Shown: positions 1 to 21,773, counted from the first letter of the stretch. The stretch: DNA of 64,000 bases from a virus (IMGVR_UViG_3300021364_000005); one strand, 5' to 3'. Program-made: numbers and translations. The notes: generated by a model from the letters alone, not told the origin.

Positions 1-774
1 AAAGTTATGGATCTAATTATTAGCACTGGTAGAGCTGATCAAGTAAACCTAGATATTTTCACTAATGTTAGTTGGGTACCAAAAGCAAAAGTATTAGATA
101 GGCTTAACCAATTTAAGGCTGTAAAAATTAATTTAAGTATTGACGGACTAGGTGCTGTCAACGATTATGTTAGATCACCAAGCGATTGGCCTACAGTTGA
201 AGAATCGGTTATTGAATGGATTAAAGAAGAAGCAAAGTATCCTGATAGATATGCAATTAAATGGGCACCTTGTTTGAGTATCTATAATGTGTGGCAGTTT
301 ACAGATATGGTAGACTGGTGGATAGATTTACAATTAAAATATAAAGGTAAAGATTTTTGGAATAGTATAACTAGAGATAATATTAGTCCTAGCGAAAGAG
401 TCAAACAACTTAATATGATTATAAATCTTGTACATGATCCAAAATATCTTTCTCCTACACTTTATCCTGAAAAGGAAATCCTTGTAGACAAAATACAAAA
501 ACAAAAAGATAAATTTTATAATTTACTTATGACTACGTTTAATGGTGACGACAGAGACAGATGGCTGCTTGGAATGCACTTTGATAGTTTATACGATAAA
601 GTTATTAGCACTGTCAAACGTCCAGTTAACGAAGATGACTTGAAAACGTTTATAGAATATACAGTAGATTTAGATAAGTTACGAAATCAAGATATTAGAA
701 CTGCTATTCCTCATGTTTGGGATAAGGTTAATGAATATTATGATTTAGAATATAAAGGAAGAATACCTGCATGA
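1..774 (+). CDS. Radical SAM protein, C-terminal part (5'-truncated by the window edge)
   Basis: Frame is open from base 1 (KVMDL...). LSIDG...DYVRSPSDW and DLDKLRNQ match the C-terminal half of the neighbouring twitch radical SAM paralogs. Confidence 0.75.
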   Translation, partial: KVMDLIISTGRADQVNLDIFTNVSWVPKAKVLDRLNQFKAVKINLSIDGLGAVNDYVRSPSDWPTVEESVIEWIKEEAKYPDRYAIKWAPCLSIYNVWQFTDMVDWWIDLQLKYKGKDFWNSITRDNISPSERVKQLNMIINLVHDPKYLSPTLYPEKEILVDKIQKQKDKFYNLLMTTFNGDDRDRWLLGMHFDSLYDKVISTVKRPVNEDDLKTFIEYTVDLDKLRNQDIRTAIPHVWDKVNEYYDLEYKGRIPA

Positions 775-2006
775 GTAACTTCTGTCCTATGCCCTGGGTG
801 CATATGAATTTAAAACAAGAAGGCAAAGTAAGTGCTTGCTGGAGATATCCTGATAGGATAGGCGACTATACACAAAGTTCATTAAAAGAAATTTGGAACG
901 GTGAGGAAGTAGTAAAACTTAGACAAGCATTACTGGATGGAGAGCGTCCTGAAGGCTGCCGTAGTTGTTGGGATATGGAAGACAGTGGTGTAAAAAGCAC
1001 AAGGCAACAAACAACAGAAGATTATAAAAATTTTATTACTGAAATAGGTGCAGAAGTTTTAGGCACTGAATTGCCTTTCAATAACGTTCAAAGTGTTGAA
1101 GTAAGGTTTGATAATATTTGTAATTTAATGTGTAGACACTGTAGTCCTGATTACAGCAGCAAGTGGGAAGTTGCTGTGAAAAAGGATCAGGCGCTAATGG
1201 ATAAAATGGTAGAATACGGAACATATAGAAAACAAAACTACCATGTGAAACTTACCGATGAAATTATAAACGAAATTACTCAAGAGCTTGCTCCTAACCT
1301 AAAAGAGATAATGCTTGCAGGTGGTGAACCATTATACCACGAAAAGCATTATGACTTTATAAAAGACTTACTTCCTCATGCTAAAAAAATACAACTAAGT
1401 TATAACAGTAACCTTACTACTACAGAATATAAAGGTGCAAGCATTATTGATTTATGGAAAAATTTTAGACGTGTATTGTTAAGAGTTAGTATTGATGGCG
1501 ATCCAAGTTGTTATGATTATGTAAGAGTTCATAACGATTTACAAAAAATTGAAAACAATATTAAAAAAGTATTACAATTATCAAATGTTAGATTGAGTGC
1601 AACTTGTACTACTAGTATATTAAACATTACTAGACTGACAAGTATTGCAGAATATTATTTAAGTTTAGGGGCTTATTTTCATACAAGCCTAGTGCAATAT
1701 CCTCGAGCATTAAATCCAAGGCTTTTACCTCAAGAACTTAAAGATAAAACTACAAGAGATTGGAACACTTGGCTTGAAGATGTAGACTTACATATTGATC
1801 GATGTGTTAGTAAAGAGTTTCCTGGTGATAAAGAATTACATAAATCAAGAATAGTTAAGTTTGGAAATAGTGTTATAAAATATATGAACAGTAAAGATGA
1901 ACATCAGTACTGGAATGAATTTGTTGATTATACCAAAGCATTAGATGCTTATCATAAAACTAGTCTTGTTGATGTCTATCCAGAATTTCAACCATACTTT
2001 GATTAA
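771..2006 (+). CDS. Radical SAM enzyme with N-terminal twitch/SPASM-like Cys motif
   Basis: FCPMPW..ACW and CRSCW; CNLMCRHC (CxxxCxxC); AGGEP; SIDG. Confidence 0.9.
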   Translation: MSNFCPMPWVHMNLKQEGKVSACWRYPDRIGDYTQSSLKEIWNGEEVVKLRQALLDGERPEGCRSCWDMEDSGVKSTRQQTTEDYKNFITEIGAEVLGTELPFNNVQSVEVRFDNICNLMCRHCSPDYSSKWEVAVKKDQALMDKMVEYGTYRKQNYHVKLTDEIINEITQELAPNLKEIMLAGGEPLYHEKHYDFIKDLLPHAKKIQLSYNSNLTTTEYKGASIIDLWKNFRRVLLRVSIDGDPSCYDYVRVHNDLQKIENNIKKVLQLSNVRLSATCTTSILNITRLTSIAEYYLSLGAYFHTSLVQYPRALNPRLLPQELKDKTTRDWNTWLEDVDLHIDRCVSKEFPGDKELHKSRIVKFGNSVIKYMNSKDEHQYWNEFVDYTKALDAYHKTSLVDVYPEFQPYFD

Positions 2007-3444
2007 ATGTTTCAATACTATCTAAGTATTGCATATCGTCAATAGGACTTTTGTATTCTATATACTTTATATTTGATCCTAATGTATCTATACCTGCTCT
2101 TAGTTTTTTAAGTAAGTTTTTCCTACCAAAGTTTATAGCATTAAAACTAAAGCCAGCTATATCACTAAAAGTGATAAGTGCTTTATCTTGTTCATTTAGT
2201 TTATATTTTACCTTGTACATTTCTGTAAGGCCGTTACATACAACATATTGATGATCTAAATTTTTGTAAACATTCCACGCTTCCAAAAACTTATCTTGAC
2301 CACCAAATGAATTGATTAGCTCAGTGTACATTTTATTGTCTTTACCTTCATAATCTTCTGTATAATTATTAGGTATTTGATCTGCTAAAATGTTTTTCAA
2401 GGACATAAAGTGTCCGTCCCAGTTATTATTTAGATAACGCCGAAATCTTATTATTTCATCATGATAATCGTAATGTACAATTTTTTTAATATTAGTTTTA
2501 TTGACTAAAGCAAGCTCCATTGCCTTGAAGCCGCTTGCTGTTGCAACTATTGTATTACAATCATTGTATATATTTTCATATTTCTTATTACTAAAATCGT
2601 TAGTATTGTTATCCCATACCCAAGTTGTTTCTGTATTCCAAACAAAATACGACCATGGTTCTAAATTGCTACTAAAGTCTTTTTTATGTGCAAGATGTGT
2701 TATTGCTTTTACTAAATTAGTTTCATGGATAGGATCAACTTGTTGCCACGCCTTCCAGAAATTGTTCCATTTATCTATACTTTTATCTGGATAGGTGTTA
2801 ATACATTCATTTCTTATATCTTGCGGAATGTTTTGTATTCGTAAGTTATGCTCTGCACTTGCTTGTATAAATCCACAGCCTTTGTCATTTTTTACCTTAA
2901 CAATATTCCTAGCACTTTGGTCCCAAGTTACTTCTAAAGGTGTATAATTGTCGTGTATGTTTTCGACACTAGACTTTAGTTTTCTTATTTCGATAGTGCC
3001 GCCGTCGGTAGTGTATTTAGGCGATCCTATTGATTTCCATTTTTTAAAATTTATAATCAATGTAATAGGAAAAATGTAATACTGGTTAAAGAAATGCTCT
3101 AAATGCTCTTTGTGATTAAACTTTGCCCATTCATATCTATCTATTAAGTGACCAGCAAATAACCAGTCATCGTCTTGTCTTTGTATGAACTTTATTACGT
3201 TACGTTGATATTCATACCAGCGTTGAAATATCACTCCACCGAATGTGACTAGTAAATAGTCAGGTTGGTCTTCTCTTTTTAAATATTCTTCTAGTAAAGA
3301 ATCAACATCTTTTGCGTGATGAAAGCCATAAAACGGAACATCAGCTTCGTTCATTTTACAAATTCTACTATAGAAAATATTAAAGTCTTCTTTTAAATCG
3401 TTATCGACTTCGTATTCCCAGACAAAACTGTGTGCAATTTTCAC
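1960..3444 (-). CDS. Hypothetical 494 aa protein, possibly two domains (GT-like N-terminus, Rossmann-like C-terminus)
   Basis: Long ORF coupled to the upstream gene by a 4-nt overlap at 3441-3444. The domain guess is weak. Confidence 0.6.
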   Translation of the reverse strand: MKIAHSFVWEYEVDNDLKEDFNIFYSRICKMNEADVPFYGFHHAKDVDSLLEEYLKREDQPDYLLVTFGGVIFQRWYEYQRNVIKFIQRQDDDWLFAGHLIDRYEWAKFNHKEHLEHFFNQYYIFPITLIINFKKWKSIGSPKYTTDGGTIEIRKLKSSVENIHDNYTPLEVTWDQSARNIVKVKNDKGCGFIQASAEHNLRIQNIPQDIRNECINTYPDKSIDKWNNFWKAWQQVDPIHETNLVKAITHLAHKKDFSSNLEPWSYFVWNTETTWVWDNNTNDFSNKKYENIYNDCNTIVATASGFKAMELALVNKTNIKKIVHYDYHDEIIRFRRYLNNNWDGHFMSLKNILADQIPNNYTEDYEGKDNKMYTELINSFGGQDKFLEAWNVYKNLDHQYVVCNGLTEMYKVKYKLNEQDKALITFSDIAGFSFNAINFGRKNLLKKLRAGIDTLGSNIKYIEYKSPIDDMQYLDSIETFNQSMVEILDRHQQD

Positions 3445-4175
3445 CCTGTAATTCCTATTTTATGCTTTAAGTATGATCTATAAACTAACCTATTCCAGTC
3501 GTCGTTTGTAATACCGTGTACAATCATATGATATCTATATTCGTCACTATGATTGTATACACAATGTACATTGTATAAATTTAAACTAATCATAGTTCCT
3601 TGCTTCCAAGGCAATATACCATGGCCGTCCATATAAAAATGGCAACCTTCAGGGTTATTTAATGCAATATTAGTAGGACCTATATGGTTTTCTTCTATAG
3701 CTACGCTATCCTTATGAGGCCAAATATACCCGCCTGGTGCTAATCTCATTATGCGTATTCTAAAGAATTTATCATACGGCATATTTTCTGTAAAGTATTT
3801 TTTAATATTTGGAGTAAAATCGCTAATGTCTGTCCAACGCCACGGAGCGTTTTCATTTGTCATACCATAAACATGGGGTGCCTCTGTATGAATACTACTT
3901 ATTCCGTGTAATACTAAACTGCTCCAGCCGCTATGTCTTTCATGGTGTCTATGTGGTATATAGTGCCTGTCAAATTGTTTTGCTTCTTCTAGCATAGCAT
4001 TCCAATCACAATCCCAATGATTGTCCGTTTCGATTGGCAAGTAGGGAATGTCACCGTGCCGTCTTACTTCTGATCCGTTTTGCAAGTCGCCTGGCAAAAC
4101 TAGTTCTTTATGAAACTTATTTCTCTCTGCAAAGTCTATTGCTGGTTCGTCACTAATACCATATTCGTTTATCAA
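3441..4175 (-). CDS. Aspartyl/asparaginyl beta-hydroxylase-like 2OG-Fe(II) oxygenase
   Basis: RIMRLAPGGYIWPHKD (HxD) ... HCVYN ... RYHMIVHG; TTG start with AGGAG SD. Confidence 0.85.
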   Translation of the reverse strand: MINEYGISDEPAIDFAERNKFHKELVLPGDLQNGSEVRRHGDIPYLPIETDNHWDCDWNAMLEEAKQFDRHYIPHRHHERHSGWSSLVLHGISSIHTEAPHVYGMTNENAPWRWTDISDFTPNIKKYFTENMPYDKFFRIRIMRLAPGGYIWPHKDSVAIEENHIGPTNIALNNPEGCHFYMDGHGILPWKQGTMISLNLYNVHCVYNHSDEYRYHMIVHGITNDDWNRLVYRSYLKHKIGITG

Positions 4176-4201
4176 CGATTTCTCCTAATTTATTATATAC
4201 G

Positions 4202-4220
4202 TATTTATATGTGATAAATA
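4202..4220. promoter_or_regulatory. Back-to-back T4-late-like promoters
   Basis: TATAAATA on minus (4202-4209) and ATAAATA on plus (4214-4220). Confidence 0.7.
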
Positions 4221-4225
4221 TTGCT

Positions 4226-5395
4226 ATGCAAAGATTAGACAGTACTAAAATTTTTTGTAGTGCAGCTTGGACTGACCTAAACATAGATTTTGGTAAACGT
4301 ACAAAAACACACTGCTGTAAAGCAAAAAAAGAAACTTTTCCAGATACTATTCCTATGGAGTTTTGGAATGAAAGTGATATGATACTCGACAGGAGAGAAA
4401 AACTTGTAGAAAAAGTACCTCATGGAGATTGTAGTTATTGCTGGATTGACTATAGTAAAACAGGGTTTGCTTACAGAGACATAAAAAATAAATGGGGCAA
4501 CATTCTGCCTTATGGAAATAACCATTTAGAATATATAGAAATTAATCTTGATAATATATGTGATATGAGCTGTTTGTACTGTAGTGCTATGTGCAGTTCT
4601 CAAATTGCAGCAGAAGAAGGAGTTTTAGATAAACGTAGGGAATTCGTTAAAGAAGAAGATTTTGATAGTTTTATGACCTTTCTAGAGAATACTCTTTCTA
4701 AAACAAAAAAACAGATTACTATAAACTTCATGGGCGGTGAACCTACACTTAGTCCTTACTTTTTCAAAATAATTTACAAATTGCATGAAAAGTTTTCTAG
4801 AAAAAAAATTAATTTAAGTTTACTTACTAACGGCAATAGCAATGAAAAAACTATGCAAAAAATGAAAGATGTGTTGGATTTTGTTAATAATTGGGACTGG
4901 CATATAGGACTTAGCCAAGAAGCTACAGGGGAAGTAGCTGAGCTTACTAGATGGGGGTGTAAGTGGGAAACTTGGCAAAAGAATTATGAGTTTTATCTTT
5001 TTCATAAATCTGTAAAACTTTTAATATTAGCTCCTACTCCTAATAGATTAAGTTTGCATGACTTACCTAATTTTGTTGATTACATTACAGAAAGCATTAG
5101 GCGTGTAAATCCAAAGAAAGAAATCGCCTGGGCAGGTAATTGGGTAAGTGATCCTAAGGTGTTAGATATTGCACATTTAGATGAAAGTAACAAAAAGTAT
5201 GTGAAAAGAGCTAAAAAGAAATTAAGCCGTCATAAGAAAAATATACAAGATTGGGATGATACTATGAAATGGATAGATACTTTAGAAAAACGTATTGGAA
5301 CAATGTCTCCCGACTACAAAGAGTTAAATGAATTTATAGACAATAAAGCTAAGAATAAGAAGACTACAAGATTGGAGCGATTTAAACATGGATAA
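4226..5395 (+). CDS. Radical SAM enzyme with N-terminal twitch-like motif
   Basis: FCSAAW..HCC, CSYCW, CDMSCLYC, GGEPT. ATG at 4226 preferred because the 4211 GTG overlaps the late promoter. Confidence 0.88.
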   Translation: MQRLDSTKIFCSAAWTDLNIDFGKRTKTHCCKAKKETFPDTIPMEFWNESDMILDRREKLVEKVPHGDCSYCWIDYSKTGFAYRDIKNKWGNILPYGNNHLEYIEINLDNICDMSCLYCSAMCSSQIAAEEGVLDKRREFVKEEDFDSFMTFLENTLSKTKKQITINFMGGEPTLSPYFFKIIYKLHEKFSRKKINLSLLTNGNSNEKTMQKMKDVLDFVNNWDWHIGLSQEATGEVAELTRWGCKWETWQKNYEFYLFHKSVKLLILAPTPNRLSLHDLPNFVDYITESIRRVNPKKEIAWAGNWVSDPKVLDIAHLDESNKKYVKRAKKKLSRHKKNIQDWDDTMKWIDTLEKRIGTMSPDYKELNEFIDNKAKNKKTTRLERFKHG

Positions 5396-6116
5396 GATAG
5401 GCGAAGCAAAAAGACATCAACAAGCAAATTACTGGTTCAATTGGATGCGGAGCGGTAAAGCAATGTACGAACCAACACCAGAAGATATAAAATGCGAACT
5501 ACAACTCCAGGCTATGTCTGATATGGAACCGTTGATGTTTACGGTTGATTACAATGACTTTGAAAAAGAAATAGAAAAGTGGAACGATAAGTGGGTTCCA
5601 TATCTTCCTCGGGAAGGCGTAAGTAATGATAGACAAGGATTACTACTAGTTGGGTTAGATGGCGACAGTCCTAGTGATAGTTTAAGTTTACCAGAGGCTA
5701 GGAAACGCACAGGAGATAATACTTTAATAGAAACAAGTTTTACACAGCCTACAGAATTGTTCAATGACTTAACTTGCTTACATCCTATATTAAAACATTG
5801 GTCTCCACTTGGCAGAACTATGCTTGTAAAAACTAATGCAGGCGGCTGGTTCCCGCCACATAAAGATTGGCCTTTTTTAACCAGACATTGCTTTAGAGTA
5901 ATTATGTTTATTGGACCAAATGTTGATCATGAAAGTTACGAATGGCACATGAATGGAAAAACATGGCCTATAAAGCAAAATGCATCCTACTATGTTGATA
6001 CTAGAAAAACGCATAGAACGCATAGTTGGAATAATGATAGTATACATTTAATAATGAACATTCCTAAAACTTGGGAAAATGTTTTAAAATTAATGAGTGT
6101 AACAAGGTACTTTTGA
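5388..6116 (+). CDS. Asp/Asn beta-hydroxylase-like 2OG-Fe(II) oxygenase
   Basis: GGWFPPHKD ... HRTHSW ... IHLIMNI. Confidence 0.8.
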   Translation: MDKIGEAKRHQQANYWFNWMRSGKAMYEPTPEDIKCELQLQAMSDMEPLMFTVDYNDFEKEIEKWNDKWVPYLPREGVSNDRQGLLLVGLDGDSPSDSLSLPEARKRTGDNTLIETSFTQPTELFNDLTCLHPILKHWSPLGRTMLVKTNAGGWFPPHKDWPFLTRHCFRVIMFIGPNVDHESYEWHMNGKTWPIKQNASYYVDTRKTHRTHSWNNDSIHLIMNIPKTWENVLKLMSVTRYF

Positions 6117-6643
6117 TGTTAATATCTGGAAACCCTAATTACGGAATTGCTAAAGCATTGCATGAAATATATCCAAATGCAACTTTTGCAAGCAGAGCTT
6201 CAGGGTATGATCTTACTACTAAACAGGGTAGAGACAAGTTTGCAAATGAAGCAGTTCATCATGATGTGATAATAATTAATGCAGCACTATGGCAATTTCA
6301 ACAAACTGTTTTACTAGATGCAGTTTATAAAAATGTAAGTGTTGAAACACATATAATTGTTATAGGTAGCACTACTGATAGAGTAAAAAATGGTAAACCC
6401 TGGTTATACAATGCAGAAAAGAAAGCCCTTAGAGACTATAGTAATACACTCGCTATAGGATCTGTTTGGGGTCAACAACCAAAAGTTAATTATATAAGTT
6501 TTGGTACTTTGAGTAATAATCAAGAAAAGCATCCTGAACGCAAATGTTTAGATATTAACGAAGCAGCTGAATGGATAGCAGTTTTAATTAATGCTCCTAA
6601 ACACTTAAATATTAATGAAATAAGTATAGATCCTGTACAATAA
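6116..6643 (+). CDS. Short-chain dehydrogenase/reductase (compact)
   Basis: MLISGNPNYGIAKAL Rossmann start; IINAA; YNAEK (YxxxK); TGATG coupling at 6114-6118. Confidence 0.8.
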   Translation: MLISGNPNYGIAKALHEIYPNATFASRASGYDLTTKQGRDKFANEAVHHDVIIINAALWQFQQTVLLDAVYKNVSVETHIIVIGSTTDRVKNGKPWLYNAEKKALRDYSNTLAIGSVWGQQPKVNYISFGTLSNNQEKHPERKCLDINEAAEWIAVLINAPKHLNINEISIDPVQ

Positions 6644-6646: not shown

Positions 6647-6674
6647 TTGACAAAATTTAAAAAGGTGTTATAAT
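6647..6674 (+). promoter_or_regulatory. sigma70-type promoter, probably leaderless (ATG 6 nt after the -10)
   Basis: TTGACA-16nt-TATAAT with TG extension. Confidence 0.8.
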
Positions 6675-12022: not shown

Positions 12023-12025
12023 ATA
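12019..12025 (+). promoter_or_regulatory. T4-late-like promoter, leaderless
   Basis: ATAAATA-cgtt-ATG. Confidence 0.65.
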
Positions 12026-12029
12026 CGTT

Positions 12030-14370: not shown

Positions 14371-15295
14371 TTGGTCAAGTTGGCGATACAACGAAGGAGA
14401 TCTGCATAGTAGAAGTCCTAGTGACGATGCAGTCTTTGAAGTTGTATACAAGCAACAGCAAGTTAAAATAGGTACACTATGGCAAGAAGCAGTAAAAGGT
14501 GCTAAAAGCACTATTGATGCTCATCCTGGAAAAAAGCCTAGTTTATTTTTTAGTGGGGGTGTTGATAGTGAAGTTATGCTTAGAGCATTTATTCATATAG
14601 GTTCTAATCCCGATGTATATATTGTTAGATATAATAATGATATAAATTTGTACGATGTAAGTTATGCTGTGTCAATTTGTAATTCTCTTGGTGTTGACTT
14701 TAAAATTATTGATATTAATTTGTTTAAGTTTTTTGAAAATGATGCAGAACAAATAAGCGAACTTGCACAATGTGATAGACCAAGAATGCTTCCACAGTTA
14801 TCCTTTGCAGATTATGTAGATGGCCTTCCAATCTTATGTATGGCAGATATTACATGGCAGCGCAGCGATTCTGATTATACCAAAAAAGGCATTTGGAAAG
14901 CATGGGAAATAGAAAGCGACTGTGCGTGTGATAGGTATAATATTGCTGTTGGCAGGGAAGCAATTTATCAATGGGGCAGATGGTCACCTGGTATATTACT
15001 AGCGCACACAAGATGGGAATGGTTTCATAAACTTATAAATGACAAGTATTACGGAAAGTTAGGAAATAGCAGCACTAAGTTTGAAGGATTTAGCAGTGAA
15101 TTTCCTGATATGATTCCTAGAAAGAAAAAAGTTGGCTTCGAAAAATGCGAAGATGTTATAAGTGAATTTGAAAGTTTTCTAAAAAAGAAATATAATGGAT
15201 TACCATTTCGTAGGCAAAGTGAATACACATTAGACGAAATGTGGTTTAAAATTACTGGTAAGAACTACGCTGCCAATAACGTTTTGGCTCTGTAG
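14342..15295 (+). CDS. PP-loop (adenine nucleotide alpha-hydrolase) ATP pyrophosphatase-like protein
   Basis: LFFSGGVDSE. Confidence 0.75.
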   Translation: MQTFQFTENNWSSWRYNEGDLHSRSPSDDAVFEVVYKQQQVKIGTLWQEAVKGAKSTIDAHPGKKPSLFFSGGVDSEVMLRAFIHIGSNPDVYIVRYNNDINLYDVSYAVSICNSLGVDFKIIDINLFKFFENDAEQISELAQCDRPRMLPQLSFADYVDGLPILCMADITWQRSDSDYTKKGIWKAWEIESDCACDRYNIAVGREAIYQWGRWSPGILLAHTRWEWFHKLINDKYYGKLGNSSTKFEGFSSEFPDMIPRKKKVGFEKCEDVISEFESFLKKKYNGLPFRRQSEYTLDEMWFKITGKNYAANNVLAL

Positions 15296-16154
15296 AGTTT
15301 GTTAAGAAATTTATTGTTTCTTCAATGTTTAAGAATACTTGATTCTCTCTGTACCTGTGTTCCATACCATTAATGATATAATCTATTTTCTCACAACCTT
15401 GATATTTTGGTACATATATTAATTCATCTTTCCAATTCTTTCCGTAAAAGATTGGTTTGATAAACAAGTCCCAATAGTTAATAACACTAATAGGTTCTTC
15501 TTCTAAGTAAGACAGCCCTTTCATTTGGTAATAGTCCCATGCATTACAAAATGCTGTTACTGTGCCGTCTTGTAAAACACTAAGCAATATATGCTCGTCT
15601 TTTTCGAAACCCACTGCTGTACGGTCGTTACACAGCGTCTTGTGTGCCCTTAAACGTGCATACTCTACACTGTTTGCTGTTTCTAGCAGGTAGTGTTTTC
15701 CATTATGTACATAAGGATCTGGACCATTAAATCCTTCTACTAGTGTTGTATTTTTTGGAAGTTTATTTAAGAAAAATGCGTGTAGTATTTGATTAGGTGG
15801 GATTTGCAGATCTTCTGATGTAGCAATTATATCATCCTTCACTTCGTATGGATCTATCTTAATTATTGTTACATCTATATTAAACTTATCTACACAAGCC
15901 TTTACGTTTTCTAGTTCATTGTCATTGTAATTAGGAAGATGTAAAAACGCACAATCTATTTGAATGCCTGCATCTTGAAAAGCTAAAAGGGTTGCTTGAC
16001 TATCCAACCCTCCGCTAAAACTTAAAATTAAATTATTGTAATTATTTTTTATAAAGTTAGCCCGCTCAGTAAACTCCTGTCTAACAGAACCTACTGGGCG
16101 GGTAACTGGGTGCAAATCTATATAGAATTTGCCATCTTCAAAACCGTATGACAT
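15252..16154 (-). CDS. PP-loop ATP pyrophosphatase-like protein
   Basis: LSFSGGLDSQ. Confidence 0.75.
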   Translation of the reverse strand: MSYGFEDGKFYIDLHPVTRPVGSVRQEFTERANFIKNNYNNLILSFSGGLDSQATLLAFQDAGIQIDCAFLHLPNYNDNELENVKACVDKFNIDVTIIKIDPYEVKDDIIATSEDLQIPPNQILHAFFLNKLPKNTTLVEGFNGPDPYVHNGKHYLLETANSVEYARLRAHKTLCNDRTAVGFEKDEHILLSVLQDGTVTAFCNAWDYYQMKGLSYLEEEPISVINYWDLFIKPIFYGKNWKDELIYVPKYQGCEKIDYIINGMEHRYRENQVFLNIEETINFLTNSTEPKRYWQRSSYQ

Positions 16155-16669
16155 TATGCAGTTTTGGGTTTTCTACCACGTTTCTTAGGTGCTTCCTTCT
16201 TAGGTGCTTCCTCGGCTAAGCTAGGATCCATTAGCTCTGTAACGGTTCTCATCCAAGGGAAGATATTCCATACACGTTCGTGTGCATAATACAAGAACAT
16301 ATTAATAGCTGTTGAAAGTCCAGCAAAGATTGTTGCTGATCCCCAGCTTCCTGTTACTAAGAAAGGAATAATAAAATTATTAGATGTAATGACTGCACGC
16401 CATGTAATCATTTTTAAAACTGCACGAAATTCTCTTTCGTCAAATGTCTCGTCTTTTTGCTTTCTAAGCAGCGAGAAAAAATTCCAAATTCTTTCATGTA
16501 ACCAGTACAAGAAACTATTAATAATAGTAGCAATACCAGCAATCTTAAGCCCAACTAGTAAACTACCAGTTGCTAAGAAGCCATTTACTACATGAGAGAT
16601 TGTAAGTAATACTCTCCATGAAACCATCTTAGAGATAGTTCTGTATTGTCTTTCATTGAACTTTACCAT
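16154..16669 (-). CDS. Membrane protein with two DUF2061-like repeats
   Basis: RTISKMVSWR...YWLHERIWN repeated as RAVLKMITWR...YYAHERVWN; AAGGAG SD. Confidence 0.7.
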   Translation of the reverse strand: MVKFNERQYRTISKMVSWRVLLTISHVVNGFLATGSLLVGLKIAGIATIINSFLYWLHERIWNFFSLLRKQKDETFDEREFRAVLKMITWRAVITSNNFIIPFLVTGSWGSATIFAGLSTAINMFLYYAHERVWNIFPWMRTVTELMDPSLAEEAPKKEAPKKRGRKPKTA

Positions 16670-16697: not shown

Positions 16698-17882
16698 TTA
16701 TTTATTGATGATTAATTTTTCAGGGATTATTTCTGAATTCATACGACCTACTTCAAATTGCTTTCCATGTATTTGTAATCCGTCTGCAAATCCGTGTTCG
16801 TAGGCTATAAAATTGCTTGCATTTTTCTTTACATAATCTAAACCTTCTAACCATATAGCGTGTTCTTTAGTTCCTTGATAGCCATTTATCCACCAATGAT
16901 CAAATTCAGAATACCAGTCTAAAGTTGCTTTATCTGCTTGCCACCAATTGTCATTCCACGTAGAATATATTAGTGGACGTAATTCTCTTTCGTGTATATG
17001 TCTATACACGTCAGCAGTCATATTTTTATGAAACCACCATTTTTGTTTGTTTGGATTAGCCTCTAACCATCGTTTAATTACGAATGCTTGTTTTGCTACA
17101 ATTGGTAATCCTTCAGGACACCAATAAAAATACTCAACTACACTGTTGTCATACTCTTTAATATGATTAGCAACGGTAATTATGTTAGTAGCTCTGTCAG
17201 CAAATCTTACGTAAAATTTACCATTTGAATGTATAAAACATCTAGGCTTTTCAATACCTAAAACAAGTGCAATTTTTTTCTCTTTATCAAAGCGTTTTCT
17301 AACTTCATTGAAATGCAAATAATTAAAACGTGTAACATTTAAAGGGTTAAGCCCTTCTTTTTTACCTTGTATCCAACTAGCATCTTTAGCAGTTAGCCAA
17401 TGTTCAAACAGGTATTCTGTCATATCAGTAACTGTAATTTTTATTTTAGGATATTTTTTATTGATTTCTTTTAATCTTGGTATAGTTTGTAAATCGTGTT
17501 CAGCTGCCGCATTCCTTGGATCTTTATTACTAGGATCTATTACAGTGTATTTTCTACTAGCAGATTCCATCGTATTACAAATTAATTCGTCAACGTGTAG
17601 TCCTTGACGTAAAAAGCTCATCAAAACATTATGGCTGTCAGCACCTCCGCTGTAACTTATCATTATATAATCGTATTCTTCTCTGAGTTGTTTTGCACGT
17701 TTATCATACAGTTGATCTAACGTCTCTTTTGGTTCTATATTCCAAGGAAACATATCCATAGCCAAATTATTAAAATGCCATTTGACTTCTGCATTTTGTG
17801 TTTGTGCATAAAAACAAGCATCTAGTTTGCTTTCAAACTCAATGCTATTAACAGAGTAATACCCTAGTTTTTTATTCATCAC
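16698..17882 (-). CDS. PP-loop ATP pyrophosphatase-like protein (paralog of 20571..21773)
   Basis: ISYSGGADSHN. Confidence 0.78.
   Translation of the reverse strand: MMNKKLGYYSVNSIEFESKLDACFYAQTQNAEVKWHFNNLAMDMFPWNIEPKETLDQLYDKRAKQLREEYDYIMISYSGGADSHNVLMSFLRQGLHVDELICNTMESASRKYTVIDPSNKDPRNAAAEHDLQTIPRLKEINKKYPKIKITVTDMTEYLFEHWLTAKDASWIQGKKEGLNPLNVTRFNYLHFNEVRKRFDKEKKIALVLGIEKPRCFIHSNGKFYVRFADRATNIITVANHIKEYDNSVVEYFYWCPEGLPIVAKQAFVIKRWLEANPNKQKWWFHKNMTADVYRHIHERELRPLIYSTWNDNWWQADKATLDWYSEFDHWWINGYQGTKEHAIWLEGLDYVKKNASNFIAYEHGFADGLQIHGKQFEVGRMNSEIIPEKLIINK
16699..16705 (-). promoter_or_regulatory. T4-late-like promoter
   Basis: ATAAATA, then a leader with AAGGAG. Confidence 0.6.
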
Positions 17883-17923: not shown

Positions 17924-18868
17924 ATGAGTAAAGTTTTTCCTTCAAAATATCCTATACTTGCTGCACCTATGAATCAAGTATCAGAGGTTAATTTAGCTGT
18001 TGCGTGTTATAACAGCGGAATTTTTCCTAGTATAAGCACATTATGTTTTGTAAATAATAGACAGATAGATTGGGAAGAATTAACTAGGCAACTTAATTTA
18101 TACAAAAGTCAAACACAAAGTAACAATTTATTGCTAAGTGTTCCTGACAAATTATTTTTCAGCGATACATTTCAGTGTTTAAAAGATCAAAAATTATTTT
18201 CTCATTTAGAGATTATTTGCACAGATCTAAGACTTAATGATAACATAACACTTAGTCAACATGATATTAACAATTTTAATAATTTAAACAATAAATTTCA
18301 ATCTTGGAAAAATAACGGCTATAAGTTTATCTATAAAAGTTTGGCTAGATTTGTAATTTATGATATCTATAAAAATTACAAAAATGATTTATTTGATGCA
18401 TTTGTTATTAAAGGTCCTGATGCAGCAGGAATGGTTATAGATAGGAAGAACGGTAATAACTTACTACAGGACTGTAATGAAGTTATTGAAAAATGTTCTG
18501 ATATAAAACTTATTGCATCGGGAGGTATAGGCTCAAAAAAAGATATAGATGATCTTTTACATATAGGAGTTGATAGTGTATCTTTAGGAACTATTTTTGC
18601 ATCTAGTAAGGAAAGTATATTGTCTGAAACAACAAAAACAAAAATGGTTAAGGCTGGCGCAAATAGTTTGAATAGATTTGCAAACTCCAATCAAAATGCA
18701 TTACAGTTTAGTGTTGTCAACAATGACGACTTTAATCATACTAATAGTTTAAAACAAGGAATATCTACTGGCAATCAAGGACATATTTTTGCAGGAAAGG
18801 GTATACAACACATAACGCAGATTCAATCTGTTAATAACATCGTTAAGGATTTAGTAAATGAAACGTAA
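17924..18868 (+). CDS. Nitronate monooxygenase (2-nitropropane dioxygenase)-family FMN enzyme
   Basis: YPILAAPM, KGPDAAG, LIASGGIG, LGTIF, AGKG. Confidence 0.8.
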   Translation: MSKVFPSKYPILAAPMNQVSEVNLAVACYNSGIFPSISTLCFVNNRQIDWEELTRQLNLYKSQTQSNNLLLSVPDKLFFSDTFQCLKDQKLFSHLEIICTDLRLNDNITLSQHDINNFNNLNNKFQSWKNNGYKFIYKSLARFVIYDIYKNYKNDLFDAFVIKGPDAAGMVIDRKNGNNLLQDCNEVIEKCSDIKLIASGGIGSKKDIDDLLHIGVDSVSLGTIFASSKESILSETTKTKMVKAGANSLNRFANSNQNALQFSVVNNDDFNHTNSLKQGISTGNQGHIFAGKGIQHITQIQSVNNIVKDLVNET

Positions 18869-20228
18869 TTTTAGTTTAGATACCTTCTGTCCAGAAGTAT
18901 ATAGTCAAATAGAGATAGATGCAGAAGGTGACTACAAAATATGTTGCCTAGCAAATTTTGATAAAGACTTTGGTATGTGTTTAGATGAAAATGGAGAAGT
19001 AATGAATGTTGCTACCCATTCTATTGAAGAAGCTATCAACAGTGAAACGCATAAGCAGCATAGATTACAACTAGCAAAAAATGAAAGACCGTTGAGGTGC
19101 AGAAGCTGCTATGATAGCGAGGATGCAACAAAAGGGTTGGCAGAATGGGGTAAAAGTGCTAAGAGGGGTAGAAGTAAGCGTCAACGTGTATTATGGCAAA
19201 CTGGTGCAAGTATACCTGAATATGTAAAGTTTGAACAAGCTGAACAAATGACAAATGCTGACGGAAGCACTTCTGCTAAAGTTGTTAATTTAGATCTACG
19301 TTTTGGTAATCTTTGTAACCAAAAATGTATCATGTGTAGTCCCCAGCACAGTAATTTATGGTACGATGATTGGGTTACGCTAGGCTATGGTGATCCTTTA
19401 TATAATAGAGATAAAGGTATCTATAAAAAAGGCGATGCAAAAACATTTAAATTTTACAAAGATGAACACGGAAAAACAAAAATGACAGGCACTGAGCGTT
19501 GGTGGGAAACTGATACTTGGTGGGAATCATTTGATAAGATTGCTCCCGACCTGCGATACATTTATTTTACTGGAGGCGAACCTTTGGTTGTTCCTGCGAT
19601 GCAAGAATGCTTAGATAGATTAATAAATGCGGGATATGCTGAAAACATACAGTTAAGATATGATACTAATTTAAGTGTAATAAACAAAAAAGTTATAGAT
19701 AAATGGAAGCATTTTAAAAAAGTTTGGTTGTGTGTTAGCATAGATGATACTGAAGAAAGATACAACCTTATAAGATTTCCTGGTAATTACGATAGAATAA
19801 AGGCAAATACTTTACAGTTAAAAGAAGCAGGAATACCTATTCATTACATAAGCACTTGTGTAGGTATTGCAAGTCCGTATAGTGTTATACGTATTAGTCA
19901 ACTTGCAAAAGAACTAGAAGTAGATACATATTTTAGATTTCTAGAAGGTCCTAACTGGTTAGATATTAGGAATTATCCTGCTAGTGCAAAACAAGAAATA
20001 ATAGAAAATTTACAAAAGCATAGCGGCGATCCACTTTATGACAAGTGGGCAAAAGGTGAAATAAAACTTTTACAAAAGTATATGGATCATAGTGAAGAAA
20101 AGTACCTAAAAGAATTCATTAGAGTAATGGATATACTCGATGAGAATCGGGGAACTAATTGGAGGTCTGTGTTAACAGATGTAGTAGATTTGTTTAAAAA
20201 TCATTGTCCTCATATATACAAAGATTAA
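18858..20228 (+). CDS. Radical SAM enzyme with N-terminal twitch-like motif
   Basis: FCPEV..ICC, CRSCY, CNQKCIMC, TGGEPL, SIDD. Confidence 0.9.
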   Translation: MKRNFSLDTFCPEVYSQIEIDAEGDYKICCLANFDKDFGMCLDENGEVMNVATHSIEEAINSETHKQHRLQLAKNERPLRCRSCYDSEDATKGLAEWGKSAKRGRSKRQRVLWQTGASIPEYVKFEQAEQMTNADGSTSAKVVNLDLRFGNLCNQKCIMCSPQHSNLWYDDWVTLGYGDPLYNRDKGIYKKGDAKTFKFYKDEHGKTKMTGTERWWETDTWWESFDKIAPDLRYIYFTGGEPLVVPAMQECLDRLINAGYAENIQLRYDTNLSVINKKVIDKWKHFKKVWLCVSIDDTEERYNLIRFPGNYDRIKANTLQLKEAGIPIHYISTCVGIASPYSVIRISQLAKELEVDTYFRFLEGPNWLDIRNYPASAKQEIIENLQKHSGDPLYDKWAKGEIKLLQKYMDHSEEKYLKEFIRVMDILDENRGTNWRSVLTDVVDLFKNHCPHIYKD

Positions 20229-20533
20229 AGATTTTCTTCCATAGTCCTTGAAATACAAACAATTTCACAAGCTGTGTTGTATTCTAATTCTCTAGCCTGT
20301 TCGGCCATCCATTCTGCATCATTTGTTACATCATTCAAGTCTACACTATCAACCCATTCGCTCACATATTGTATAACTAATTTAGAGTCATCTAAAAAAG
20401 ATGCTTCTCTAAACTTAGTGCATAGTCCTGTGTCAATAGCAATTTCTTGAATGTGATCTAAAAAAGACTGTTGTGGTGCATAAAATTCTACCTCTGTGTG
20501 AGGACGAATAAACTGTCTTGTAAATCTTTTCAT
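20225..20533 (-). CDS. Small acidic hypothetical protein
   Basis: ATG at 20533 with GGAG SD; fills the gap between a convergent and a divergent neighbour. Confidence 0.7.
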   Translation of the reverse strand: MKRFTRQFIRPHTEVEFYAPQQSFLDHIQEIAIDTGLCTKFREASFLDDSKLVIQYVSEWVDSVDLNDVTNDAEWMAEQARELEYNTACEIVCISRTMEENL

Positions 20534-20559
20534 TTTTAATCTATCTCCGTTTTGTTCCA

Positions 20560-20566
20560 ATAAATA
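20560..20566 (+). promoter_or_regulatory. T4-late-like promoter, leaderless
   Basis: ATAAATA-ctat-ATG. Confidence 0.65.
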
Positions 20567-20570
20567 CTAT

Positions 20571-21773
20571 ATGTTAAAACACAAAGCACTTGGTTACTAT
20601 GTTGTTAATGGCAAAACTTTTTCTAGTAAGATTGCTGCTTGTATTTATGCAACGCAAAATCATGCAAGTATAAGATGGCATTTTAACAATGAAATATTTG
20701 ATTATTATCCCTGGCACATAGAACCTGAAGAAAGTTTAGATGAACTTTATTATCGTAGAGCTAGGCAACTGCGTGAGCAGTACGATTATATCTGTTTAGC
20801 ATTTAGCGGAGGTGGTGATAGTAACAACATACTAGAAGCATTTTTGCGTCAAGGATTATTCATTGATGAAGTTGTAACAAACATCATGGATGATAAAAAT
20901 AAACTTACTACCAATAATAGTTTACAGATTAGTAATTGGAACGAAGGTGCTGAGTATAAACTCCAAACTGTAGATAGACTTAAAGAACTACAAAGTCGAT
21001 CTCCTAATACTAAAATAAGTGTTATTGATCTAAGTAAAGGATTGTTTGAAATATTTAATTCCTACGGAGATGCAGGTTGGATAGAAAAAACTAGAGAACG
21101 AATGAACCCTAGCGGATTTATGCGTCATAATTTTTTACACATGAAAGAAATACGTAAAAGATTTGATAAAGATAAAAAGATTTGTATGTTATTAGGAATC
21201 GAAAAACCTCGCACTTTTGTAAAAGATGGTATGTTTAAAATGGCTTTTAGCGATAAGGCTGTTAATATAGCTACAGTATCAGAGTTTATTGAAGACTACG
21301 ACAATACAGAAGTAGAATATTTTTATTGGCATCCTGATGCTGCTGCAATAATTGCCAAGCAATGTCATGTTATAAAGCGTTGGTTAGAATTCAATCCTAG
21401 ATTTTTAAAGTATTGGTTGCCTAAAGACACAGGCGAAATATGGAGTAACCATAGGAAGTATCACGAAAGGATACTTAGACCTTTGATATATAATTCAACA
21501 TGGCATGAAACTTATTGGCAGGCAAATAAAAGTACTAAAGATTGGTATTCTGAAATTGACGACTGGTTTTGGAAGCAACACAGCGGAACAAAGGAACACG
21601 CTATATGGAGAGCCGGTTTAGATTATGTCAAAGAAAATGCAAAAGATTGGATGATGCCTGGTGACACCGAAGGTTTAAAAGGATTTTTGCATAGTTATGA
21701 TATTGGAAAACTAAAAACTATTAATGCAGGTCAACCCACACACCGTTCGCATATGCTTGGACTTTATTCGTAG
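20571..21773 (+). CDS. PP-loop ATP pyrophosphatase-like protein (paralog of 16698..17882)
   Basis: LAFSGGGDSNN. Confidence 0.78.
   Translation: MLKHKALGYYVVNGKTFSSKIAACIYATQNHASIRWHFNNEIFDYYPWHIEPEESLDELYYRRARQLREQYDYICLAFSGGGDSNNILEAFLRQGLFIDEVVTNIMDDKNKLTTNNSLQISNWNEGAEYKLQTVDRLKELQSRSPNTKISVIDLSKGLFEIFNSYGDAGWIEKTRERMNPSGFMRHNFLHMKEIRKRFDKDKKICMLLGIEKPRTFVKDGMFKMAFSDKAVNIATVSEFIEDYDNTEVEYFYWHPDAAAIIAKQCHVIKRWLEFNPRFLKYWLPKDTGEIWSNHRKYHERILRPLIYNSTWHETYWQANKSTKDWYSEIDDWFWKQHSGTKEHAIWRAGLDYVKENAKDWMMPGDTEGLKGFLHSYDIGKLKTINAGQPTHRSHMLGLYS

What the first reader, a model, noticed from the sequence alone, without database searches (positions are those of the whole stretch)
1..21773. A >21 kb phage-encoded tailoring-enzyme island resembling a biosynthetic gene cluster with no known product
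Seen: 24 contiguous genes, nearly all enzymes. They include 7 radical SAMs (4 complete with N-terminal twitch-like Cys motifs, 1 with a C-terminal twitch, 1 B12-binding, 1 partial), 3 2OG-Fe(II) oxygenases, 4 PP-loop adenylating enzymes, 2 desaturases, an SDR, a nitroreductase, a methyltransferase, a GNAT and an FMN monooxygenase. Most are translationally coupled. Established: these families perform C-H activation, methylation, hydroxylation, adenylation/amidation and desaturation in RiPP, cofactor and lipid pathways. Inference: this is a concerted phage pathway that decorates a virion protein, glycan or host lipid. I recognise no characterised pathway with this combination.
Basis: partly seen in the sequence, partly recalled or inferred. 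Interest (0 to 1): 0.85.

Follow-up and report, generated by a model that had tools for sequence, protein, structure and literature searches.

The report
Phage radical-SAM tailoring island by tail fibres
An uncultured 300-kb marine phage devotes about 38 kb next to its tail-fibre genes to some 40 tightly packed enzyme genes, 13 of them radical-SAM enzymes. The block is built from conserved modules shared with many other marine phages and with predatory bacteria, and its product is still unknown.

Summary
Window 1-21773 carries 24 contiguous, mostly overlapping genes with intact catalytic motifs, and the enzyme inventory is essentially as listed.

The block is only the right 57% of an island of about 38 kb. 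That island has 13 radical-SAM genes (14 domains) and lies between two tail-fibre-like genes.

It is neither a random gene dump nor one linear pathway. It is a mosaic of conserved modules:
- A radical-SAM core recurs in about 30 marine phage contigs and, at 57-65% identity, in chromosomes of predatory Bdellovibrionota.
- A hydroxylase plus glycosyltransferase/methyltransferase pair is fused into one protein in those bacteria.
- A 'lipid-flavoured' right-hand module (g10-g24) recurs in three other phage contigs, once rearranged and again ending at an Mtd_N fibre gene.

Two perfect sigma-70 promoters head the long operons, which suggests early expression. Only three proteins are membrane proteins.

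The product is unknown. My best guess is stepwise cytoplasmic tailoring of a glycoconjugate or fibre-linked decoration.

The kind of island is already described (host recognition cluster of pelagimyophages; multi-radical-SAM phages). This scan has also met it before on other DNA (Bdellovibrionota, CPR bacteria, other phages). Interest is moderate-high, not 0.85.

The parts
1..774 (+). g01: last 257 aa of an 804-aa protein with two radical-SAM domains (u19). Its N-half is u11-type and its C-half is N-terminal-twitch type.
771..2006 (+). g02: N-terminal-twitch radical SAM (NF033640, 327 bits against cutoff 170); CNLMCRHC at 117. Last gene of the 18-gene operon that starts left of the window.
1960..3444 (-). 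g03: two-domain protein. Residues 1-235 have a GT-A glycosyltransferase fold and residues 240-494 a class I methyltransferase fold. It is fused to the g04-type hydroxylase in Bdellovibrionota.
3441..4175 (-). g04: Asp/Asn beta-hydroxylase-family 2OG/Fe(II) oxygenase
4202..4209 (-). TATAAATA (T4 late-promoter-like) 27 nt before the g04 start, followed by AGGAGA
4211..5395 (+). g05: N-terminal-twitch radical SAM (NF033640 166 bits, just under cutoff). Other gene callers start it at 4226.
5388..6116 (+). g06: unknown. An HKD...H pattern suggests a cupin/2OG oxygenase but this is unverified. Conserved in L038, L039 and L019.
6071..6643 (+). g07: short SDR-like protein (Gly-rich N-terminus, YxxxK). 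Part of the widely conserved core.
6647..6674 (+). Perfect sigma-70 consensus promoter TTGACA-16-TGnTATAAT, ending 6 nt before the g08 ATG. Conserved before g08 orthologues in other phages.
6681..7811 (+). g08: radical SAM, the most conserved gene of the island. It shows 78-89% identity in phage loci, belongs to 4840 90%-identity clusters, and is 57-69% identical in Bdellovibrionota.
7793..8503 (+). g09: nitroreductase-like flavoenzyme (indirect evidence)
8500..9207 (+). g10: 2OG/Fe(II)-oxygenase-like (DUF6445-type), paralogue of u18
9198..9665 (+). g11: small SAM-methyltransferase-like protein (weak)
9662..10687 (+). g12: N-terminal-twitch radical SAM (NF033640 160 bits, just under cutoff)
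10606..11259 (+). g13: GNAT acyltransferase
11252..12803 (+). g14 (11252-12022) and g15 (12030-12803): paralogous membrane di-iron FA_desaturase-family proteins. His boxes and TM segments are present.
12796..14370 (+). g16: B12-binding-type radical SAM (putative C- or P-methylase class)
14342..15295 (+). g17: PP-loop ATP pyrophosphatase (SGGVDS). Not QueC.
15252..16154 (-). g18: PP-loop ATP pyrophosphatase (SGGLDS)
16154..16669 (-). g19: DUF2061 membrane protein
16698..17882 (-). g20: 394-aa PP-loop protein of an unannotated family, paralogue of g24
17924..18868 (+). g21: NMO/FabK-like FMN TIM-barrel oxidoreductase
18858..20228 (+). g22: N-terminal-twitch radical SAM (NF033640, 293 bits)
20225..20560 (-). 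g23: 111-aa unknown, conserved (33-35%) in L038 and L039
20571..21773 (+). g24: 400-aa PP-loop protein. Its family has 274 clusters, all 'hypothetical', with no Pfam.
21721..23310 (-). g25: tail-fibre protein with an Mtd_N domain. It is the right boundary and converges on g24 here and in L120.

Best explanation
What it is. The stretch is the right-hand part of an enzyme island of about 38 kb. The island sits in the tail-fibre (host-recognition) variable region of an uncultured marine T4-type jumbo phage of about 300 kb. It is a mosaic of at least three conserved tailoring modules, not one linear pathway.

The three modules.
1. A radical-SAM core: u08 (a SAM-dependent transferase), u09, u11, u15-u19, g02, g07 and g08.
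2. A hydroxylase plus glycosyltransferase/methyltransferase pair: g04 and g03.
3. A module g09/g10-g24, which joins:
   - radical SAMs;
   - four PP-loop adenylating enzymes;
   - a GNAT;
   - two membrane desaturases;
   - a DUF2061 membrane protein;
   - a FabK/NMO-like flavoenzyme.

How it is expressed. The genes are read as very long translationally coupled operons from consensus sigma-70 promoters, so probably early, by host RNA polymerase. Almost all products are soluble.

Inferred mechanism.
- In the cytoplasm the radical-SAM enzymes perform successive C-H activations on one scaffold. These could be epimerisation, C-methylation, dehydrogenation or C-C/C-X bond formation.
- Oxygenases, adenylating/amidating enzymes, methyl- and acyl-transferases then finish that scaffold.
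- The scaffold is most likely a sugar-type or glycoconjugate moiety.
- The GT-A domain of g03 then places it on a hydroxylated acceptor, plausibly a fibre or other surface protein.

Shown versus inferred. The gene content, the modularity, the promoters and the shared core are shown. The substrate, the order of steps and the acceptor are inferred.
For: Content and motifs.
- Families and motifs.
- The left extension adds six more radical-SAM genes and a tail-fibre-like u01.
- Paralogy: eight N-terminal-twitch domains, four u11-type domains, plus g08 and g16.

The core co-occurs.
- It is found in L001-L026 and L035-L037, with partly shuffled order.
- u17 is 74-85% identical there and g08 is 78-89%.
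- In Bdellovibrionota contigs of up to 936 kb, u17 is 59-61%, g08 57-65%, u11 43-45% and u16 36-48% identical.
- g08 orthologues are in 15 of 301 sampled genomes of that phylum.

The right module co-occurs.
- It is syntenic in L038 and L039 at 33-84% identity, with motifs kept.
- It is present but rearranged in L120, again ending at an Mtd_N fibre gene.

g04 and g03.
- They are fused in L044, L073, L098 and L117.
- The g03 fold matches the PBCV-1 capsid glycosyltransferase (Z 10.2), LH3/ColGalT1 (Z 9.0) and many other GT-A enzymes, plus methyltransferases.

Sugar genes beside homologous islands.
- NeuB and a CMP-sugar synthetase (L035).
- UDP-glucose dehydrogenase and a mannose-1-P nucleotidyltransferase (L036).
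- SIS, NeuB, CTP_transf_3, GT2 and HAD in Bdellovibrionota loci.
- An epimerase, an ArnB-type aminotransferase and a carbamoyltransferase in pelagiphage Mosig.

Promoters.
- The perfect TTGACA-N16-18-TATAAT occurs 4 times in the window against 0.14 expected.
- It stands at the heads of both long operons.
- It is conserved before g08 orthologues.

Only g14, g15 and g19 have TM segments.
Against: - No substrate is identified. This island holds no nucleotide-sugar synthesis gene, no initiating transferase, no flippase and no polymerase.
- The sugar link rests on neighbours of related islands. It is absent around some Bdellovibrionota copies.
- The commonest accessory families in phage relatives fit peptide or small-molecule chemistry as well as sugar chemistry. 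They are nitroreductase, Asp/Asn hydroxylase, PP-loop, AMP-binding, a tryptophan halogenase and an SbmA/BacA transporter.
- The GT-A assignment comes from a medium-confidence model (pLDDT 71), and Z 8-10 is only modestly above background.
- Early-type promoters do not fit a purely late, virion-decorating role.
- Desaturases, an FA hydroxylase (in L120) and a FabK-like enzyme point to a lipid substrate for module 3.
Confidence: 0.4

Rival explanations
1. Protein or peptide maturation (RiPP-like). The radical-SAM enzymes with auxiliary-cluster domains, the hydroxylases, the nitroreductase-fold dehydrogenase and the PP-loop enzymes directly modify a ribosomal product. The most plausible target is the adjacent tail fibres or another virion or surface protein, with cross-links, epimerisation, methylation or hydroxylation followed by glycosylation.
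For: - SPASM/twitch radical SAMs mostly act on peptides (established knowledge; many weak NCBIfam hits to peptide maturases).
- The island is bracketed by fibre genes, and g24 converges on an Mtd_N fibre in two phages.
- The g04+g03 architecture resembles collagen lysyl hydroxylase/glycosyltransferase LH3.
- Relatives carry an SbmA/BacA transporter, a tryptophan halogenase and AMP-binding enzymes.
Against: - No precursor-like small ORF was found. Gaps are 41 nt or less.
- The only conserved small protein, u09, is conserved along its whole length and has no Cys.
- No leader peptidase, no exporter and no recognisable RRE were found.
- The Bdellovibrionota copies do not sit beside fibre genes.
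- The promoters are of the early type.
Confidence: 0.25
2. Host-envelope remodelling. At least module 3 (desaturases, DUF2061, FabK/NMO-like, GNAT, B12 radical SAM, PP-loop enzymes) alters a host membrane lipid or a lipid-linked molecule during infection. This would be an auxiliary metabolic or superinfection-exclusion function and would leave the virion untouched.
For: - The only membrane proteins of the island are here.
- The FA_desaturase His boxes are intact and conserved.
- L120 adds an FA_hydroxylase.
- g16 hits a lipid-type B12 radical-SAM family (TIGR04072) and HpnJ.
- The sigma-70 early-type promoter heads the g08-g17 operon.
- Pelagiphage and cyanophage islands carry desaturases (PMC7029224).
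Against: - Four PP-loop enzymes and two twitch radical SAMs have no obvious place in lipid desaturation.
- The module keeps its link to an Mtd_N fibre gene.
- It has no acyl-carrier or acyl-transfer machinery apart from a GNAT.
Confidence: 0.2
3. A hypervariable collection of unrelated auxiliary genes. The genes sit together only because this region tolerates insertions, and there is no shared substrate between or within modules.
For: - The region is variable. Strains 99.2% identical from u07 onward share nothing to its left.
- Gene order in the core is shuffled, and cassettes such as g04-g03 come and go.
- The literature describes the host recognition cluster as non-syntenic and under-recruiting (PMC7029224).
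Against: - Sets of 9-17 genes recur together at 33-89% identity in diverged phages, even after rearrangement, and in Bdellovibrionota.
- The genes are translationally coupled in operons of 10 and 18 genes.
- A gene fusion links g04 and g03.
Confidence: 0.1
4. Nucleic-acid hypermodification. The radical SAMs, PP-loop enzymes, GNAT and flavoenzyme build a modified base, perhaps feeding the 7-deazaguanine (dpdA) cluster elsewhere in the window, which lacks queC.
For: - g17 and g18 give weak QueC hits.
- Phage thymidine hypermodification uses radical SAM, flavin and acetyltransferase enzymes (my own knowledge, not checked here).
Against: - The QueC hits cover only the PP-loop (profile positions 3-79 of 210) and fall below the cutoff.
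- The island lies among fibre genes, not DNA-metabolism genes.
- The core also occurs in bacterial chromosomes.
- The island has no base-exchange or kinase gene.
Confidence: 0.05

Closest known systems
Host recognition cluster (HRC) of pelagimyophages and cyanomyophages (Zaragoza-Solas et al. 2020, PMC7029224); cultured example: Pelagibacter phage Mosig EXVC030M, MT647606
   Same: - It is a large variable island among tail-fibre genes of marine T4-type phages.
- It carries radical-SAM cassettes, Asp/Asn hydroxylases, nitroreductases, a desaturase, a GNAT and methyltransferases.
- It varies between close relatives.
- Its product is unknown.
   Different: - The phage here is a jumbo phage of about 300 kb. 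Its polymerase is closest to Atu_ph07 and Phosso.
- It has 13 radical-SAM genes, against 3 in Mosig.
- The sugar genes typical of the HRC (aminotransferase, epimerase, carbamoyltransferase, ordinary glycosyltransferases) are absent from this island.
- The VrlC/gp14 borders that define the HRC were not found.
- No close homologue of g02, g08 or g24 exists in any GenBank phage.
NCBIfam NF033640, 'twitch domain-containing radical SAM protein' (N_Twi_rSAM), a computational family with no characterised member known to me
   Same: g02 and g22 score above the family cutoff. g05, g12, u14, u16, u17 and the C-half of u19 are clear relatives. All have the Cys-rich domain before the CX3CX2C core.
   Different: The family name says nothing about substrate. 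Here eight such domains sit in one island together with a second radical-SAM family (u11-type), g08 and a B12 type.
Radical-SAM-rich islands of Bdellovibrionota
   Same: They share the core u17, u11, g08, u16 and u08 at 31-65% identity, the g04+g03 unit and many N_Twi paralogues. In seven of those bacterial loci, 53 of 116 ORFs are radical SAM.
   Different: The bacterial copies are chromosomal and not next to fibre genes. g04 and g03 are fused there. The right-hand module g13-g24 is essentially absent. Only 5% of the sampled genomes of the phylum have g08.
Multi-radical-SAM phages in the literature: Campylobacter phages CP220 and CPt10 (11-12 genes, PMC2853527) and a marine T4-like environmental genome with 12 (PMC5332604)
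   Same: These phage genomes have about a dozen radical-SAM genes, some in an interchangeable module, and the function is unknown.
   Different: CP220-type phages gave no hit to g02 at E 1e-5, so they probably hold different radical-SAM families. Whether the Tara genome holds the same core was not tested.
Collagen lysyl hydroxylase/glycosyltransferase LH3 and viral protein glycosyltransferases (PBCV-1 A64R)
   Same: They combine a 2OG/Fe(II) hydroxylase with a GT-A glycosyltransferase. This is fused in LH3 and in the Bdellovibrionota g04+g03 proteins. g03's best fold match is A64R.
   Different: The likeness is of fold only (7-9% identity). g04 belongs to the Asp/Asn hydroxylase family, not the lysyl hydroxylases. 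g03 adds a methyltransferase domain. No activity or acceptor is known.

Membership tests
NCBIfam NF033640 N_Twi_rSAM | Whole-protein score at or above the curated cutoff (170 bits) | tested here: met
   g02 scores 326.9 bits and g22 scores 292.8 bits. g05 (165.7) and g12 (160.1) fall just below and are relatives by profile-profile comparison.
NCBIfam NF033640 N_Twi_rSAM | Cys-rich auxiliary-cluster (twitch/SPASM) domain N-terminal to an intact CX3CX2C radical-SAM core | tested here: met
   Pfam SPASM lies at residues 4-85 and Radical_SAM downstream in g02, g12 and g22. C23, C63, C66, C117, C121 and C124 are invariant in 48 homologues.
Host recognition cluster (HRC) of marine T4-like myophages | Large variable island that contains or abuts tail-fibre genes | tested here: met
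   u01 (tail-fibre PHROGs) lies on the left and g25 (Mtd_N, fibre PHROGs) on the right. Variability is shown.
Host recognition cluster (HRC) of marine T4-like myophages | Position between VrlC and the neck gene gp14 | tested here: inconclusive
   The right flank is an unknown gene, a VWA-like protein, a MoxR-type ATPase and an exonuclease, with no recognised gp14. The DNA left of u00 was not examined, and VrlC was not searched for.
Host recognition cluster (HRC) of marine T4-like myophages | Pelagimyophage or cyanomyophage (Kyanoviridae) genome | tested here: inconclusive
   The polymerase is T4-type (phrog_262). Its best matches are jumbo phages Phosso and Atu_ph07 at 46-49%. The longest contig carrying the window's own g02 is 303,728 bp, far larger than the 141-kb Mosig genome.
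RiPP biosynthetic gene cluster | Precursor peptide gene next to the maturases | tested here: not met
   No intergenic space exceeds 52 nt inside the island. The small conserved u09 has no Cys and is conserved end to end. This does not exclude a distant or large protein substrate.
RiPP biosynthetic gene cluster | Leader peptidase and/or exporter | tested here: not met
   No peptidase or transporter family was found. Only g14, g15 and g19 have TM segments.
Surface-polysaccharide (O-antigen or capsule) gene cluster | Glycosyltransferase(s) | tested here: inconclusive
   There is one GT-A-fold domain (g03), assigned by structure only (Z 10.2, pLDDT 71). No Pfam glycosyltransferase family was hit.
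Surface-polysaccharide (O-antigen or capsule) gene cluster | Nucleotide-sugar synthesis genes, initiating transferase, flippase or polymerase | tested here: not met
   None is in window 1-21773 or in the left extension. Sugar-activation genes occur only beside related islands.
QueC (7-cyano-7-deazaguanine synthase) | Full-length match above the Pfam cutoff | tested here: not met
   g17 scores 18.2 bits and g18 scores 19.3 bits, against a cutoff of 22. Only profile positions 3-79 of 210 (the PP-loop) are matched.
Membrane fatty-acid desaturase/hydroxylase superfamily (PF00487) | Score above cutoff, histidine boxes and membrane segments | tested here: met
   g14 scores 52.7 bits and g15 scores 62.5 bits, against a cutoff of 29.7. 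HxxHH and HxxxH boxes are kept in orthologues. The DesA equivalog cutoff is not reached, so regiospecificity and substrate are unknown.

The most novel reading that the evidence does not exclude
Marine phages and predatory Bdellovibrionota both must recognise Gram-negative cell surfaces. The novel reading is that they share an exchangeable radical-SAM 'core' (u08, u11, u16, u17, g08). This core would make a so far undescribed, heavily C-H-functionalised decoration. Through a hydroxylase-glycosyltransferase-methyltransferase unit, that decoration would be attached to fibre or adhesin proteins and would tune host or prey recognition. That would be a new class of post-translational glyco-modification with new radical chemistry.
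Probability: 0.2. Interest if true: 0.85.

Novelty: new variant of a known kind. Interest (0 to 1): 0.6.

Why it matters
Radical-SAM-rich islands are among the largest blocks of unexplained enzymology in abundant ocean phages. The g08 family alone has more than 4800 90%-identity clusters in public metagenomes.

This analysis shows that the island is modular and defines a compact conserved core. It shows that the core also lives in Bdellovibrionota chromosomes. It finds a hydroxylase-glycosyltransferase fusion and early-type promoters. Together these turn 'a pile of enzymes' into a short list of testable units. If the product proves to be a fibre or surface decoration, it would bear on how phages and bacterial predators change host range.

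Tried and rejected
Searches that found nothing.
- Nucleotide search of the island against GenBank phages: no match.
- tblastn of g08 and g24 against GenBank phages: no match.
- g02: only about 21% identity to KVP40-type and RsoM2USA radical SAMs.
- Pfam (E up to 5) and PHROGs on g03, g06, g07, g09, g10, g20, g23 and g24: nothing.
- PDB sequence search with g08, u17, u07 and u08: nothing useful.
- IMG/VR scan with g20: no relative.
A 12-sequence alignment worked.

Contexts that did not help.
- A cellular N_Twi homologue on a 925-kb contig stood alone among unrelated genes.
- The neighbourhood of one Bdellovibrionota core copy held no sugar genes.

Ideas considered and rejected.
- u09 as a RiPP precursor: rejected because of its conservation pattern.
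- g17 and g18 as the 'missing QueC' of the window's dpdA cluster: rejected.
- TATAAATA as the main promoter of the island: it is depleted, with 3 copies against 10 expected, and only the copy before g04 is well placed.

Weak evidence.
- A DNase-treated metatranscriptome holds seven short exact contigs over 3052-7552. Contigs cannot prove transcription.
- A 'joint' 9781->18264 in one metagenome has only 20 nt on one side. I take it for a paralogue artefact.

Not run. No complex prediction was run, because I claim no specific protein-protein contact.

Full report
**Setting**

The window comes from an uncultured marine phage.
- It carries a T4-type family-B DNA polymerase (phrog_262). The best matches are jumbo phages Phosso and Atu_ph07 at 46-49%.
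- No whole genome is held for it.
- The longest public contig that carries its proteins is 303,728 bp.
- Near-identical DNA occurs in seawater, marine, marsh and estuary metagenomes of at least nine studies.
- The island has a G+C of 32-37% and a + strand skew. The backbone to its right is transcribed on the - strand.

**Observation**

Packing.
- ORF calling gives 24 contiguous genes in 1-21773.
- Junctions are overlaps of 1-82 nt, apart from five short gaps.

Families (Pfam and NCBIfam).
- Six complete radical-SAM genes (g02, g05, g08, g12, g16, g22) and one fragment (g01).
- An Asp/Asn beta-hydroxylase-family oxygenase (g04).
- A GNAT (g13).
- Two FA_desaturase proteins (g14, g15).
- A DUF2061 membrane protein (g19).
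- An NMO/FabK-like flavoenzyme (g21).
- Two weak QueC-type PP-loop hits (g17, g18).

Motif scans.
- CX3CX2C is present in every complete radical SAM.
- SGGxDS is present in g17, g18, g20 and g24. g20 and g24 are 49% identical.

- g10 matches u18 by profile comparison, and the Atlas model of u18 resembles 2OG-FeII_Oxy_3/DUF6445.
- g09 has nitroreductase-family relatives in related islands.
- g11 has a weak MetW hit.
- g07 is SDR-like by motif.
- g06 is unverified.

The inventory is accurate.

**Extension to the left**

Exact-protein look-ups returned public contigs that overlap the window. L031 coordinates equal window coordinates plus 18482, as verified. They add:
- a tail-fibre-like gene, u01;
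- nine proteins without family (u02-u10);
- radical-SAM genes u11, u12, u14, u15, u16, u17 and the full 804-aa u19, of which g01 is the tail.

Profile-profile comparison sorts the radical SAMs into four groups:
- eight N-terminal-twitch domains (g02, g05, g12, g22, u14, u16, u17, u19 C-half);
- four 'u11-type' domains with an N-terminal CX3CX2C and C-terminal Cys (u11, the split pair u12+u13, u15, u19 N-half);
- g08;
- the B12-type g16.

The whole island therefore has 13 radical-SAM genes (14 domains) in about 38 kb. It lies between u01 and the Mtd_N fibre gene g25.

**Is it a pathway or a dump?**

Core module.
- An IMG/VR scan with g02 gave 27 loci.
- Mapping all island proteins on them shows a recurrent set: u11, u15, u16, u17 (74-85% identity), u18, u19, g02, g07 and g08 (78-89%).
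- Gene order in this set is partly shuffled. It usually ends at the same backbone genes (g26-g28).
- Pfam-annotated neighbourhoods of two more homologues show arrays of up to ten consecutive radical-SAM genes.

Right-hand module.
- The part g06, g08, g10-g24 was absent from those loci.
- It is fully syntenic, at 33-84% identity and with all motifs kept, in L038 and L039.
- It is present in rearranged order, without g16, in the 217-kb contig L120. There it again ends at a convergent Mtd_N fibre gene.

Strain-level variation.
- A strain 99.2% identical from u07 onward has unrelated DNA to the left of it.

Conclusion.

**Cellular relatives**

- The N_Twi family is very large: 9840 50%-identity representatives at E up to 0.001.
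- A scan of one genome per prokaryotic species returned 77 loci, about 55 of them from Bdellovibrionota.
- Several chromosomal contigs, up to 936 kb, hold u17 (59-61%), g08 (57-65%), u11 (43-45%), u16 (36-48%) and u08 (31-37%) side by side.
- In seven such loci, 53 of 116 ORFs are radical SAM. The rest include three Asp/Asn hydroxylases, two SIS proteins, NeuB, a CMP-sugar synthetase, a GT2 and a HAD.
- g08 orthologues (61-69%) occur in 15 of 301 sampled genomes of that phylum.
- g08 itself has 4840 90%-identity clusters, and the best 120 are all at least 85% identical. Its nearest ESM-Atlas clusters are 88-100% viral.
- g08 has no match in any GenBank phage.
- This confirms independently what earlier notes of this scan reported on other genomes.

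**New functional leads**

g04 and g03.
- They are adjacent in several phages and fused into one 650-810-aa protein in Bdellovibrionota.
- A model of g03 (pLDDT 71) has an N-terminal GT-A glycosyltransferase fold. Matches include PBCV-1 A64R (Z 10.2), LH3/ColGalT1 (Z 9.0) and many others.
- Its C-terminal domain has a class I methyltransferase fold.
- Hydroxylase plus glycosyltransferase is the logic of collagen LH3. This is a resemblance, not membership.

u08.
- It folds as a class I SAM-dependent transferase.
- Matches include methyltransferases, nicotianamine synthase, CntL and spermidine synthase.

Membrane proteins.
- Only g14, g15 and g19 have membrane segments.
- There is no transporter, peptidase, flippase or polymerase.

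Sugar-activation genes.
- They are absent from this island.
- They flank homologous islands elsewhere, including in the cultured pelagiphage Mosig.
- The commonest accessory families in phage relatives are nitroreductase (9), Asp/Asn hydroxylase (5) and PP-loop (4).

**Regulation**

- A perfect sigma-70 consensus (TTGACA-N16-18-TATAAT) occurs four times in the window against 0.14 expected.
- One copy lies 6 nt before the g08 ATG and heads the ten-gene operon g08-g17.
- Another, in the left extension, precedes u03 and heads the 18-gene operon u03-g02.
- The same promoter is conserved before g08 orthologues in L007, L010, L025 and L039.
- TATAAATA is depleted (3 copies against 10 expected). One copy sits 27 nt before g04.
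- I read this as early, host-polymerase-driven expression of the main operons and possibly late expression of g04-g03. This is inference from sequence only.
- A DNase-treated marsh metatranscriptome contains seven short exact contigs over g03-g08. These cannot prove transcription.

**Interpretation**

What is shown:
- a real, conserved, modular enzyme island beside fibre genes;
- intact catalysts;
- operon structure;
- a core shared with predatory bacteria.

What is inferred:
- multi-step cytoplasmic tailoring of one scaffold, most likely a glycoconjugate that a GT-A enzyme attaches to a hydroxylated acceptor (confidence about 0.4).

Rivals:
- direct maturation of fibre or other proteins (0.25);
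- host-lipid remodelling by the right-hand module (0.2);
- unrelated genes sharing a permissive region (0.1);
- nucleic-acid modification (0.05).

These are not mutually exclusive across modules.

**Comparison with the known**

The kind of island is already described.
- The host recognition cluster of pelagimyophages and cyanomyophages has radical-SAM cassettes (PMC7029224).
- A marine T4-like genome has 12 radical-SAM genes (PMC5332604).
- Campylobacter phages have 11-12 (PMC2853527).
- Pelagiphage Mosig shows the same enzyme classes between VrlC and its tail fibres.

What differs here:
- the jumbo-phage host genome;
- the number and families of radical SAMs;
- the lack of ordinary sugar genes;
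- the conserved PP-loop/desaturase module.

I rate it a new variant of a known, functionally unsolved kind.

Noticed in passing
window 6647-6674, 39411-39439(-), 46874-46902(-), 52069-52097(-); L031 3356-3384: Perfect sigma-70 consensus promoters (TTGACA-N16-18-TATAAT) occur 4 times in the window against 0.14 expected. This looks like a distinct early-promoter class of this phage. The copy before g08 ends 6 nt from the ATG, so the transcript would be nearly leaderless, and it is conserved in other phages.
   Followed up: partly
window 6671-7337 (g08): In three DNA metagenomes the summed contig depth over g08 is 4-20 times that of its neighbours, with many variant contigs ending at its borders. 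Many co-occurring phages share this one gene at 90% nucleotide identity or more.
   Followed up: partly
L031 1-5768 versus L033 (window about -18481 to -12714): A strain 99.2% identical from u07 onward has unrelated sequence to the left. The fibre-proximal edge of the island (u02-u06) is replaced between strains.
   Followed up: partly
window 21721-23310(-): The tail-fibre gene g25 has a 37-aa Mtd_N (major tropism determinant N-terminal) domain. It overlaps g24 by 53 nt, convergently. I did not look for a diversity-generating retroelement.
   Followed up: no
window 24859-27348(-): The backbone pair right of the island is a VWA-like/DUF2201-type protein (PHROGs calls it 'HNH endonuclease') and a MoxR/CobS-like AAA ATPase. 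The pair is conserved at 45-76% in the related phage loci.
   Followed up: partly
L121 8788-11161: Two paralogues of the unannotated PP-loop family g20/g24 lie side by side in another phage contig, next to TctC-like proteins and away from any radical SAM. The two may work as a pair.
   Followed up: no
window, 4-27 nt before the ATG of g04(-), g05, g15, g21, g24; also u01 in L031: ATAAATA-type motifs recur immediately upstream of start codons inside the island. They could be late-type promoters or an A/T-rich initiation signal. This is unresolved.
   Followed up: partly
L031 10001-10997 (u12+u13): u12 (243 aa) and u13 (93 aa) together match the N- and C-terminal parts of a u11-type radical SAM. 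This is a split, or frameshifted, paralogue. The same split is kept in L007 and L011 at 44-45% identity.
   Followed up: partly
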